The position numbers and the translations under genes were made by a program. From positions 1 to 49,707 of the IMG/VR virus record IMGVR_UViG_3300028585_000293: a stretch of DNA of 49,707 nt, one strand, 5' to 3'. Below are positions 29,661 to 33,327 of this stretch, piece by piece; positions within the stretch are counted from its first letter, which is position 1; every line of letters begins with the position of its first letter. Below the pieces are notes generated by a model. The model was not told the DNA's origin, did no database searches, and worked only from the letters and a program-made list of their open reading frames with translations. This DNA is from a virus. Taxonomy: Duplodnaviria > Caudoviricetes.

Positions 29661-29873
29661 CTACTTCTCCCCGAAGCCAGGCACATCCCTGAGTACCGCC
29701 TTGCGCATGCGATGAATGAACACAGCAGCCAGGATCGCCACCCACGTCCACACAACGCCGTGGACCCAGCCCGGCACGTCGAGACGGTCGAGCAGGAGCC
29801 AGAGGACGATCGCAAACAGAATCGGTGGCCGCGGCGGCAGCGAGCTGTGCTTAATGAGAACTTCTTGCGACAT
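29661..29873 (-). CDS. Small two-TM membrane protein
   Basis: GAGGTG RBS, ATG 29873 and two hydrophobic segments. Confidence 0.65.
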   Translation of the reverse strand: MSQEVLIKHSSLPPRPPILFAIVLWLLLDRLDVPGWVHGVVWTWVAILAAVFIHRMRKAVLRDVPGFGEK

Positions 29874-29885
29874 GGCGCACCTCGG

Positions 29886-29925
29886 AAAAAGAAAAGCCGC
29901 CCGGCGCATTGCTGCGAGGGGCGGC
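29886..29925 (-). terminator. Intrinsic terminator closing the structured late leader
   Basis: GCCGCCC...GGGCGGC followed by TTTTCTTTTT. Confidence 0.7.
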
Positions 29926-29962
29926 GAAAGACCAGCGTTGGAGCTGATCGAGGAAACTGGTA

Positions 29963-30101
29963 GTGGTGGCCGGTGCTGACCTCCGGCATTCCCTGGCAAG
30001 CGGGCGTTTTACGTGAGCGACACTGGCGGTAAGGGCGAGGGAATCGCCGTCATCTTTACGCTTGCCTTGCTGTGCTGCGCATCAGCCTGCGCATTCACCA
30101 C
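29963..30101 (-). ncRNA. Cloverleaf-like RNA with complementary (kissing) loops
   Basis: Closing stem GTGGTG/CACCAC; hairpin TGCGCA-GGCTGA-TGCGCA; arm GGCAAGCG/CGCTTGCC; hairpin GCCGG-AGGTCAGCA-CCGGC. Loop segments GCTGA and TCAGC are complementary. Confidence 0.65.
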
Positions 30102-30210
30102 ACACCCGCCAGCAGGAGTTGAACCTGCGACCTCTCCTTTCCATCCGGCTGTTGTTCAATCCGGACTACGGGAGCGCTCTAACCATCTGAGCTATGGCGT
30201 GTGTGTGGTG
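30096..30210 (-). ncRNA. tRNA-like element with extended acceptor stem and 24-nt anticodon insertion
   Basis: TA GCTC AGATGGTTA GAGC D arm, AGGTC variable loop and GCAGG TTCAACT CCTGC T arm. The anticodon loop is replaced by 31 nt and no CCA is encoded. Confidence 0.75.
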
Positions 30211-30491
30211 ACTCGTTCTCGGGAATCAGGCGGCCAACCCCAAGGCTATCTGCCAAGTGGGCGGCTTGCCGGTTACAGCGTCCGGCGTCGGTGCGCGCTG
30301 GGTGCGCTCGACTGTTCTGGCCGATGCCAGATCGCGCTCTCGTATTCGTGTGCGCCGTCTTCGAAGTCTCGCCGGGCGGGCGCTCCGGCACTTCTCTGGC
30401 AAATATGATCCCGTGCGCGTTTCGTCGCGCTTCTACGTGATGACCAGGCCGGGCGGGATCTAGCGCTTCATGGCACACCTCCTCGGGGCGT

Positions 30492-30520
30492 AAACGACAA
30501 AGCCCGCCGAAGTGGCGGGC
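30492..30520 (-). terminator. tR'-like terminator downstream of the late promoter
   Basis: GCCCGCC ACTTC GGCGGGC TTTGTCGTTT. Confidence 0.65.
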
Positions 30521-30650
30521 CAAGATGTAGGGTACTGCACATATTTCAGGGCGAGCGCCGCCTTTACTGCTGGCTGGACTGCTCGACTGCCTCGGGTGAC
30601 GTTGGCGCCAAGGCGCGCATTACGTGGATCGAGGGATATGTGAAGACCGT

Positions 30651-30679
30651 AGTTTACGCCCGGTTCGTGCGCTTTGCAA
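30651..30679 (-). promoter_or_regulatory. Late promoter (pR'-like), sigma70 type
   Basis: TTGCAA-17 bp-TAAACT, just downstream of the Q-like operon. Confidence 0.7.
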
Positions 30680-30689
30680 TACTGTTCAG

Positions 30690-30893
30690 CTACAACACTA
30701 CGCGCGCCACAACAGCGTCCACCACATGCTCATCGGGAGCACCCAGACTGCGACAGGTGATCATCCGAATGTCGATATCGACTGGAGTCGCGCCCGTTGC
30801 AGCCTTGAAATCAACCACAGCCTTTGCAGCAGCCATCAGGATCGAGTGCTCCATCTCCCGCTTCGCCTGGAGCATTGCCTCGGCCGCACTCAT
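30690..30893 (-). CDS. Hypothetical protein (67 aa)
   Basis: ATGA-coupled to the Q-like gene. Confidence 0.6.
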   Translation of the reverse strand: MSAAEAMLQAKREMEHSILMAAAKAVVDFKAATGATPVDIDIRMITCRSLGAPDEHVVDAVVARVVL

Positions 30894-31435
30894 GCTGCCC
30901 TCCGCATCTTGGCGGCGGCCCGCGCGCTGTGCGCCTGGTACATGCCTTCCAGCTCCGACACCATGTCGGCAATACGCTCACGCTCCAGCGCTCCGCCCTG
31001 GATTGGCTCACGCCCAGGGGACGCGGCGCAATGGGTGCACGCCCGGCCGGAATCGATCTTGGTGCCGTTGCATGCGCTGCATTCGCCGCCCAACCAGTGA
31101 GCCAGCGAGTGCACCGCGATCTTCTTGTAGATGCCGTACGCCGCCCCGATGTCCCATTCGTGCTTGATGTTGATCCACTTGCGGGCAAAGCCCCTGCGCG
31201 CCACTTCGCCGGTCCAGATGCGCAGCAGCACGCCCAGGTCGTGCGCGTTGCTCTCGATAGCCTGGCGCGGCACGCCAGCGATGTGCGCGCGCAACAGCAT
31301 CGACCCGAAAAGCTCACCCGAGCCACCGGACAGGTCGGCCAGCGCCGCGGCGACGAGCGGCTCCGTTTGGTGGTGCTGATCGTCGTCCTGCAGGTTGGAA
31401 GTGCTCAGTGCGTTGAGGTAGCGCTCAGCGAACAT
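30890..31435 (-). CDS. Late antiterminator Q-like zinc-finger protein
   Basis: CSACNGT...CTHC zinc finger, GGAG RBS and position upstream of the late promoter/terminator. Confidence 0.7.
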   Translation of the reverse strand: MFAERYLNALSTSNLQDDDQHHQTEPLVAAALADLSGGSGELFGSMLLRAHIAGVPRQAIESNAHDLGVLLRIWTGEVARRGFARKWINIKHEWDIGAAYGIYKKIAVHSLAHWLGGECSACNGTKIDSGRACTHCAASPGREPIQGGALERERIADMVSELEGMYQAHSARAAAKMRRAA

Positions 31436-32350: not shown

Positions 32351-32601
32351 TGGCGAGCCTCGATCGAAGATGCCACAGCGGTCGCCAGCCTGTGCAGCCG
32401 GGCGTTGAACCACCGGCGTACGGCATATGACCGAACCACGCTGATCACGGTATAGATCAGGCCCAGGGCGAAGTTCGCGCCAGGCGTGATGTGGAACCCG
32501 AACAGCGGGAAGATAAACATGTTGGCCGTGAAATTGATCCCGAATCCGATCAGGACGTTGATGATGGCCTCGATGAACGAGCCGAGCCGGGTCTGAGTCA
32601 T
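32347..32601 (-). CDS. Conserved phage two-TM membrane protein
   Basis: QTRLGSFIEAIINVLIGF...FPLFG...ISVVRSYAVRRWFN. Confidence 0.8.
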   Translation of the reverse strand: MTQTRLGSFIEAIINVLIGFGINFTANMFIFPLFGFHITPGANFALGLIYTVISVVRSYAVRRWFNARLHRLATAVASSIEARQ

Positions 32602-33071
32602 TTGGCCAAGTCTCCGTAGGTGATGGTGTAGTGGGTCGGATTGCGATCGGCGTAGCGGTCAATGATATTGGCCGCGCCAGCGTTCAGGGCCGGATAGAAC
32701 GGCAGCGCGCGGGGCGGCCGGTCGTCGGTGAATTTCCCCTGCATCATGGCGTCGCGCAGGACCACGAGCGAGGTGATGGCCTTCGTCACGTGCGACATGC
32801 CCGAGTCCGGGTCGATGTCTTCACCCTCCCACCATGCCATCAGGTGCCGCATCACGCCGTCGTAATAGACCGAGCCGCGCACGCCCACCGCGCGATAGTT
32901 GTGGCGGCCATACTTGCTGGCGCCCTCCAGCATCGCCACTCCAATCTCGGCCAGCACAGTTGCCGGCACGGTCGACATCGGCGCCTTGCGCACGCCGACC
33001 AGGTCCTTCGGGTTCGTCGGCTTCTCATCGTCCAGCGTGTGGAACGTCAGCATTTCGTGGGAATCGCTCAT
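32598..33071 (-). CDS. dATP/dGTP diphosphohydrolase N-terminal domain protein (DUF5664-like)
   Basis: NPKDLVG..K, GASKYGRHNY and RHLMAWWEGEDIDPDSGMSH motifs. Confidence 0.8.
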   Translation of the reverse strand: MSDSHEMLTFHTLDDEKPTNPKDLVGVRKAPMSTVPATVLAEIGVAMLEGASKYGRHNYRAVGVRGSVYYDGVMRHLMAWWEGEDIDPDSGMSHVTKAITSLVVLRDAMMQGKFTDDRPPRALPFYPALNAGAANIIDRYADRNPTHYTITYGDLAK

Positions 33072-33072
33072 T

Positions 33073-33327
33073 TCATCCTTTCGTTTTGGGTTGTGCTGCA
33101 TTCTTGTTTTGGTCAGCCTGGGCACGCTTCTCGGCCCAGGCCTTGCGATCGTCGAGGTTGGTCGGCAGCGTGTATCGCTCGCACGCCGGCCGGTTCCATG
33201 GCACGAAGGGCTTGATCACATCGACCCGGCGGGCACCACCCTCGCAGCGCCCTATCCCGACCTTCGCGTGCTCAGGGAATTCCTTCATCTTGAAGTGACC
33301 GCGCAGGGCGCACGCCTTTTCGCTCAC
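33073..33327 (-). CDS. Hypothetical Cys-containing protein
   Basis: 84-aa ORF with ATGA coupling. Confidence 0.6.
   Translation of the reverse strand: MSEKACALRGHFKMKEFPEHAKVGIGRCEGGARRVDVIKPFVPWNRPACERYTLPTNLDDRKAWAEKRAQADQNKNAAQPKTKG

What the first reader, a model, noticed from the sequence alone, without database searches (positions are those of the whole stretch)
29963..30210. The two RNAs compete for one shared GTGGTG strand: a possible conformational or processing switch
Seen: the minus-strand hexamer GTGGTG (30096-30101) is both the 3' end of the tRNA-like extended acceptor stem (partner 30205-30210) and the 5' strand of the cloverleaf closing stem (partner 29963-29968), so the pairings are mutually exclusive. 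A terminator follows at 29886-29925, ahead of the packaging genes. Inference: RNase P cleavage at tRNA +1 would remove the upstream partner and release the second RNA, coupling host tRNA processing to late-gene control.
Basis: inference. Interest (0 to 1): 0.7.

Follow-up and report, generated by a model that had tools for sequence, protein, structure and literature searches.

The report
Shared-strand handover in phage RNA array
Two neighbouring tRNA-shaped RNA genes of this phage compete for one short strand, an arrangement that recurs in many unrelated phages and likely sets the order in which the RNAs fold and are cut apart, while the proposed switch for the packaging genes is not supported.

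Summary
The three hexamers are where stated and the two pairings exclude each other. The downstream RNA (B, 29963-30102) belongs to a widespread tRNA-shaped phage family with no Rfam match (about 1200 IMG/VR stretches), with a covarying closing stem and loop-loop kiss. The upstream RNA (A) is a tRNA body whose anticodon loop is replaced by a hairpin. The shared strand is a family trait: an upstream helix invades B's 5' strand in 24 of 82 unselected loci by a strict test (shuffles 0.3) and 54 of 82 by a loose one (shuffles 21.8); nothing invades the 3' strand (0 of 103); all three strands covary. The terminator link fails: the hairpin is predicted to form in both states, and it is kept in 18 of 19 sister phages, 13 of which have no B. 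RNase P cutting A first is doubtful (leader paired over 9-10 bp, no CCA). Best reading: a one-way precursor hand-over during RNA maturation; enzyme and order are untested, and no RNA ends were obtained. This scan has noted the family, and once this hairpin, on other DNA.

The parts
30890..31435 (-). 181-aa ORF at the place of a lambdoid Q antiterminator; identity inferred
   Evidence: No PHROG or Pfam hit; ESM Atlas neighbours include a cluster with PF03589 Antiterm on 11% of members, a lead only; 19 relatives at 74-91%
30651..30679 (-). Late-promoter-like site, TTGCAA-17-TAAACT (inferred)
   Evidence: Sequence; below the threshold of the scan; the -10-like hexamer recurs in most sister loci (by eye)
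30550..30640 (-). Highly conserved leader element right after the promoter-like site
   Evidence: Its first 18 nt found in 19 of 19 sister loci; no Rfam match
30498..30521 (-). First terminator-like hairpin
30210..30227 (-). Short hairpin flush against U
   Evidence: Sequence; such a hairpin precedes U in 40 of 68 shared-strand loci against 7.9 in shuffles
30205..30210 (-). U: upstream CACCAC, outer end of A's 17-nt closing helix
30105..30201 (-). RNA-A: tRNA body (acceptor 6 of 7 pairs, D stem 4 of 4, T stem 5 of 5) without anticodon loop and without encoded CCA
   Evidence: ARAGORN and Rfam silent on the window; 4 homologues score 32.6-52.5 bits as RF00005, L383 with a 29-nt insert for the 7-nt loop
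30134..30174 (-). Expanded anticodon arm of A: 4-bp stem carrying an inner hairpin
   Evidence: Predicted in all 10 copies folded, with differing sequence
30096..30101 (-). S: shared GTGGTG strand (with T30102, the 5' strand of B's 7-position closing stem)
30077..30092 (-). RNA-B 5' hairpin; loop GCUGA is one half of the kiss
29988..30076 (-). RNA-B variable middle (cargo)
   Evidence: Core-to-core length 72-250 nt in 103 loci; cargo unrelated in L381 and L386, nearly the same in L384
29969..29987 (-). RNA-B 3' hairpin (5 bp, 9-nt loop); loop UCAGC is the other half of the kiss
29958..29968 (-). D: CACCAC, then U, then ACCA (tRNA-like 3' end in this copy)
   Evidence: CCA at this offset in only 9 of 103 family loci
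29886..29926 (-). Terminator-like hairpin and U-run, independent of the A/B pairing
29661..29873 (-). 70-aa ORF behind the hairpin, first of four small ORFs before HNH, terS and terL

Best explanation
The shared strand pairs either with the upstream or with the downstream CACCAC and likely works as a one-way hand-over during RNA maturation, not as a gene switch. Shown: A and B lie back to back in a non-coding array; the 3' end of A's long closing helix is B's 5' closing strand; this overlap recurs with unrelated upstream stems and covaries three ways. Predicted: U:S forms first, as transcription passes 30096, and holds S while B's variable middle is made. Inferred: once B's 3' hairpin appears, its loop kisses the 5' hairpin loop, which places D at the open end of the U:S helix, and D replaces U by strand exchange; a host RNase (RNase P at about 30102 is the candidate, B then showing 7+5 stacked pairs and ACCA) cuts between the two RNAs and makes the change permanent. 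The mature RNAs are inferred to act in trans as tRNA look-alikes; their target is not known.
For: Asymmetry fits transcription order: strict upstream helix into S in 34 of 103 loci (24 of 82 unselected, 10 of 21 chosen for a nearby T loop) against 0.4 shuffled, downstream helix into D in 0 of 103. Overlap is all or none: of 70 long stems near B, 13 do not overlap, 3 overlap 1-3 nt, 54 overlap 4-9 nt. Nine different S heptamers among the strict loci. G-U wobbles fall independently in U:S and D:S (42 only U, 21 only D, 3 both), as expected for selection on RNA pairing, with U the weaker partner (p 0.011, loci not independent). In 35 of 68 loci 1-5 nt of S stay free at the junction end, a possible toehold. 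Kiss covaries: GCUGA/UCAGC changes to ACUGA/UCAGU (10 loci), GUCGA/UCGAC (3), GAUGA/UCAUC (5), GGUGA/UCACC (5) among 67 loop-variant loci with a 3' arm. Without the kiss the two states are within 2 kcal/mol or favour S:D in 33 of 68 loci; in the window hand-built structures differ by 4.1-7.4 kcal/mol and the kiss duplex scores -6.8. RNase P processes polycistronic pre-tRNA 3' to 5' and paired leaders inhibit it (PMC10731613, passages). In sister phages the same slot holds real tRNA-Gly or tRNA-Thr in 8 of 19 loci.
Against: In the window the ensemble model favours U:S by 10-17 kcal/mol and S:D never forms in the intact RNA (14.1); U:S is favoured by more than 2 kcal/mol in 35 of 68 loci; the window has no free toehold nucleotides. 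The kiss energy is a crude duplex value, not a tertiary energy. After exchange B's leader would still be paired in A's inner stem, and leader structure slows RNase P. CCA is not conserved in B (9 of 103), B has no TPsiC loop, and 28 of 82 unselected B copies show no overlap even by the loose test. The loose test has a high shuffle background (21.8 of 82). No RNA end was observed.
Confidence: 0.5

Rival explanations
1. Cut-first gate: B stays open until the upstream stem is cut (RNase III in long DicF-like stems; RNase P or RNase III in A), after which D takes S.
For: P(S:D) rises from 0.00 to 0.91 after a cut at 30201; loci with tRNA-like upstream units favour U:S strongly (window 14.1, L141 12.9, L168 12.3, L190 9.2 kcal/mol). 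DicF is released by RNase E and RNase III (PMC9438474, passages), and phage P1 has B behind a region annotated dicF-like.
Against: A+1 lies inside a helix and A lacks RCCA; the 7-bp acceptor register is broken in L384/L388 and L387 while U:S is kept; a cut near the top of a long stem would leave U paired to S (inference).
Confidence: 0.25
2. By-product of cassette shuffling: U and D are short direct repeats that arise because phage RNA cassettes are swapped at CAC-rich ends; the overlap has no job at RNA level.
For: Cargo between U and S is swapped freely in sister phages (L258, L259, L257); 28 of 82 B copies lack the overlap.
Against: Independent wobbles in U and D argue against DNA copying; the overlap is one-sided; it follows S when S changes.
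Confidence: 0.12
3. The precursor state is itself the functional shape: flush hairpin + U:S helix + B's 5' hairpin form a circularly permuted tRNA-like domain around cassette A, which a nuclease reads.
For: Hairpin flush with U in 40 of 68 loci against 7.9 shuffled; U has no partner further upstream (2 of 50 against 3.4).
Against: The flush hairpins differ in loop sequence and, by eye, none complements GCUGA; the helix runs on past the would-be cut site.
Confidence: 0.08
4. Attenuator-like switch: the state of S controls read-through at 29886-29926 into the packaging genes.
For: A terminator-like hairpin starts within 70 nt of B in 23 of 81 unselected loci against 2.4 shuffled; predicted terminator probability differs between states in L029, L050 and L097.
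Against: No overlap between D and the hairpin; probability 0.89-1.00 in both states; unchanged in 22 of 25 loci; hairpin kept without B in 13 of 18 sister loci, and in L257 a whole tRNA lies between them. Termination is decided within seconds of synthesis, and a Q-modified polymerase would read through (established lambdoid biology, recalled; Q identity here inferred).
Confidence: 0.05

Closest known systems
Pre-tRNAs with leader-trailer pairing and dicistronic pre-tRNAs processed 3' to 5' by RNase P (E. coli valVW; PMC9433436, PMC10731613, passages read)
   Same: Back-to-back tRNA-shaped units a few nt apart; structure around the 5' unit is placed to delay its processing.
   Different: Here the blocking helix is 9-10 bp longer than an acceptor stem and is built from the next unit's own closing strand; neither unit is a decoding tRNA.
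DicF/dicB operon leader of prophage Qin (PMC9438474, passages read)
   Same: Small RNAs cut out of a prophage leader by host RNases; many upstream partners of B are long stems of this look, and P1 has B behind a dicF-like region.
   Different: The upstream unit in this window is tRNA-derived, in a late-type region; no strand sharing is described in the passages read.
T4 RNAC and RNAD (PMC9697503, passages read)
   Same: Stable phage non-coding RNAs of unknown function made late; their place in the tRNA cluster is recalled and given in note e1-254143.
   Different: No sequence relation shown: no record named as T4 among the rows listed, not tested directly.
C4 / CI antisense RNAs of P1, P7, P4 (RNase P substrates; C4 named in PMC10731613)
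   Same: Phage RNA closed by an acceptor-like stem and matured by a host tRNA enzyme (works-like candidate).
   Different: No C4 family hit in Rfam; B has a kissing pair of loops and a freely variable middle.
Two-piece (permuted) tmRNA precursor (PMC3978253, passages read)
   Same: An acceptor-like helix formed by an upstream 3'-type strand and a downstream 5'-type strand, enclosing an insert.
   Different: B also has its own downstream 3' strand; weak Rfam tmRNA scores in L005 and L019 lie upstream of B, not on it.

Membership tests
tRNA (RNA-A) | 7-bp acceptor, D arm, T arm with UUCRA loop | tested here: met
   6 of 7, 4 of 4, 5 of 5 pairs in the window; D and T stems full in 10 of 10 copies; homologues score as RF00005
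tRNA (RNA-A) | 7-nt anticodon loop on a 5-bp stem | tested here: not met
   About 30 nt with an inner hairpin instead; ARAGORN calls none in the window and 2 of 9 homologues, as 98-nt tRNA-Pro
tRNA (RNA-A) | 3' CCA, aminoacylation | tested here: inconclusive
   CCA not encoded; addition after processing cannot be tested
Canonical RNase P substrate (A+1) | Single-stranded 5' leader and 3' RCCA | tested here: not met
   Leader paired over 9-10 bp, no RCCA; criteria from PMC9433436 and PMC10731613
Canonical RNase P substrate (B+1) | About 12 stacked bp, T loop, RCCA, free leader | tested here: inconclusive
   7 positions (6 paired) + 5 bp and ACCA in the window; no TPsiC loop; CCA in 9 of 103; leader paired in A
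Transcription attenuator / riboswitch expression platform | Alternative structure overlaps or changes the terminator stem | tested here: not met
Transcription attenuator / riboswitch expression platform | Switch and terminator inherited together | tested here: not met
   13 of 18 sister loci keep the hairpin without B
C4 / CI antisense RNA | Match to the Rfam C4 models | tested here: not met
C4 / CI antisense RNA | Loops complementary to targets in the same operon | not tested
   No target search was run for B's cargo
tmRNA, one- or two-piece | tRNA-like domain plus tag reading frame; Rfam or ARAGORN call | tested here: not met
   No call on A or B
RNase III processing stem | Long helix cut in vivo, dependent on rnc | not testable with these tools
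   Stems of 12-38 pairs predicted upstream of B; no reads with ends

The most novel reading that the evidence does not exclude
Phages of Proteobacteria build modular RNA arrays with a standard joint: each swappable upstream cassette ends in the closing strand of an uncatalogued tRNA-shaped RNA, and a loop-loop kiss acts as a remote toehold that drives strand exchange, so folding order and release of the RNAs are programmed by the joint alone. This would be a natural strand-displacement device for ordered RNA maturation.
Probability: 0.25. Interest if true: 0.75.

Novelty: new variant of a known kind. Interest (0 to 1): 0.52.

Why it matters
RNA-B sits unannotated in phage P1, HK633 and many other cultured phages, and a 421-nt stretch of one locus that carries it matches 1767 of 5426 complete E. 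coli genomes, 461 of them over at least 80% of its length. A conserved, one-sided strand overlap gives a direct handle on how these RNAs are matured and a cheap experiment in laboratory lysogens. The result also removes an attractive but unsupported idea, control of packaging genes by host tRNA processing.

Tried and rejected
RNA ends: four raw-read RNA runs laid on the related locus L010 gave 0-10 reads, none over A or B; four contig runs covered the stretch but cannot show ends, strand or level. No evidence either way. A genome-contig scan for A returned 49 matches, none with a T loop behind it, taken as chance. The genome search draws no relatives for a virus record. One search used a mis-registered structure string and is discarded; pairs were recounted. 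The pairing-probability test (61 of 82 against 24.3 shuffled) was set aside as unspecific because S is G/U-rich. A chain in which U closes a further upstream module was rejected. A conserved encoded CCA for B was rejected. Rows dropped: of 184 B hits, 157 had a 3' arm, 132 were unique with enough upstream DNA, 105 remained after clustering, 103 had a closing stem of 5 bp or more; 29 of 96 loop-variant loci had no 3' arm found, and 7 ACUGA loci keep UCAGC, losing one kiss pair. Literature: searches found no description of B or of the overlap; one search looked for the motif letters and found 0 papers. The alignment archives of Fremin et al. 2023 (PMC10690425; listing and 3 of its supplementary files searched) could not be read and may hold the motif. 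Subscription papers are not in the library.

Full report
Setting. The window is a 49.7-kb lambdoid-type phage record; its terminase is 60.6% like that of a Ralstonia phage, so a proteobacterial host is inferred. On the minus strand, between a 181-aa ORF at the place of Q (30890-31435; no family hit; weak Atlas lead to antiterminators) and four small ORFs, HNH, terS and terL, lie about 770 non-coding bases: a promoter-like site (30679-30651), a conserved leader, a terminator-like hairpin (30521-30498), further folded elements, RNA-A, RNA-B and a second hairpin with a U-run (29926-29886).

Observation. U (30210-30205), S (30101-30096) and D (29968-29963) are as reported. U:S is the outer part of a 17-nt helix with 16 pairs that closes A. 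S:D closes B when B is folded alone. Both cannot form at once. Neither RNA is called by ARAGORN or Rfam in the window.

RNA-A. It has intact D and T arms, but about 30 nt with an inner hairpin stand where the anticodon loop should be, and no CCA is encoded. Nine viral homologue loci were found; the acceptor part varies with kept pairing, D and T stems are full in all, and four score as tRNA in Rfam with a long insert. In L384/L388 and L387 the 7-bp acceptor register is broken while the U:S helix stays. All nine are followed by B or a shortened B.

RNA-B. One 22-nt word of its 5' hairpin matches about 1200 IMG/VR stretches and the element occurs in P1, HK633 and many cultured phages. Among 103 non-redundant loci the closing stem has 25 different 5' heptamers with matching 3' strands, the middle varies in length and sequence, and the loops of the 5' and 3' hairpins covary as a kiss (four alternative pairings in 23 of 67 loci; 7 loci lose a pair). 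No Rfam family covers it. Earlier notes of this scan describe the same family on other DNA; I treated them as leads.

The overlap is a family trait. A strict ungapped helix from upstream into S occurs in 24 of 82 unselected loci (shuffles 0.3) and 10 of 21 loci chosen for a nearby T loop (0.1); into D from downstream in 0 of 103. A looser folding test gives 54 of 82 against 21.8, with overlaps peaking at 6-8 nt and almost none at 1-3. The upstream partners are unrelated to each other: long DicF-like stems, tRNA-like bodies, other cargo. When S changes, U and D change with it, and wobble pairs fall independently in the two helices. Loci sharing DicF-like ends are not independent, so the counts overstate the number of events. 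Note e1-5948039, read after these calls, reports the same hairpin in about a fifth of the family and also rejects a reversible switch.

The terminator is not coupled. It begins about 37 nt after D, behind a further small hairpin. Its predicted probability is 0.89-1.00 with either pairing forced and 1.00 with any hexamer replaced. It shifts in 3 of 25 loci that have both features. Among 19 sister loci found by the Q-like protein it is present in 18 (17 by pattern, L243 by eye; L245 ends too early). The slot before it holds a real tRNA in 8, B in 3, shortened B in 2; 13 have no B-type RNA. B is often the last unit before a terminator (23 of 81 against 2.4), which fits the end of an RNA operon.

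Which state comes first and what ends it. The model keeps U:S at 0.87-1.00 through all transcript lengths. In the intact window RNA U:S wins by 10-17 kcal/mol in the ensemble and by 4.1-7.4 between hand-built structures; the kiss, which the model cannot see, scores -6.8 as a duplex. In the family the median gap is 2.65 kcal/mol, with 33 of 68 within 2 or favouring S:D, and 35 of 68 leave part of S free at the junction end. After a cut at A+1 B closes (0.91). But A+1 is a poor RNase P site: two leader pairs lower kcat/Km 13-fold (PMC9433436, abstract and passages), A has nine or ten and no RCCA, and polycistronic precursors are cut 3' to 5' (PMC10731613, passages). I therefore put kiss-assisted exchange followed by a cut at B's 5' end first (0.5) and a cut-first gate second (0.25). 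For this particular copy the energies lean more towards the gate than they do in the family. No experiment or read set decides it.

Comparison with what is known. It works like leader-paired, ordered processing of pre-tRNA clusters and like RNase-cut prophage leaders such as dicB/DicF (PMC9438474, passages). A is not a decoding tRNA; B is not tRNA, tmRNA or C4 by the tests run; the locus is not an attenuator. T4 RNAC/RNAD are late RNAs of unknown function (PMC9697503, passages) and only an analogy. PMC3978253 was read in passages; other papers were seen as search listings only. The label DicF-like for the long stems rests on the P1 annotation, earlier notes and recall, not on an Rfam score above threshold. 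The listed searches found no paper on B or the overlap; unread supplements of PMC10690425 may hold the motif.

Verdict. New variant of a known kind, on an uncatalogued RNA family that this scan has met before. Interest 0.52.

Noticed in passing
Candidate for an antitermination site or a short late-promoter RNA.
   Followed up: partly
window about 30480-30230, minus: Further recurring folded elements before A (for example the hairpin around 30290-30267 and the CAGATAG element near 30255), shared in varying sets with sister phages.
   Followed up: no
L242, L258, L382, L383: Shortened B variants of about 45-75 nt that keep the GC-rich 5' hairpin and a closing stem but lack the kissing loops and cargo.
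   Followed up: partly
L249, L250, L252, L254: A second degenerate tRNA-like unit with a T-arm-like hairpin in the slot before the terminator, not called by ARAGORN.
   Followed up: no
L244, L245, L247, L248, L251, L252, L253, L259: Opposite-strand two-gene cassettes that look by eye like toxin-antitoxin pairs (HicAB or HigBA type, label recalled, not scanned) inserted in the same non-coding array.
   Followed up: no
L079:729-777: The cargo of this B copy is itself a tRNA body with almost no anticodon arm (Rfam tRNA 34.2 bits).
   Followed up: no
L010 about 565-545 and 885-868, minus: The loop of the terminator behind B is partly complementary to a conserved motif 300 nt upstream in the same leader (by eye), as in antisense immunity systems.
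   Followed up: no
L121:2501-2530 (phage P1): B lies behind trnA and trnT on the strand opposite the annotated gene plp, 1 kb behind a dicF-like region; plp may be a shadow ORF.
   Followed up: no
window 32598-33125, minus: 175-aa ORF with PHROG hits to a dATP/dGTP pyrophosphohydrolase family among the early genes.
   Followed up: no
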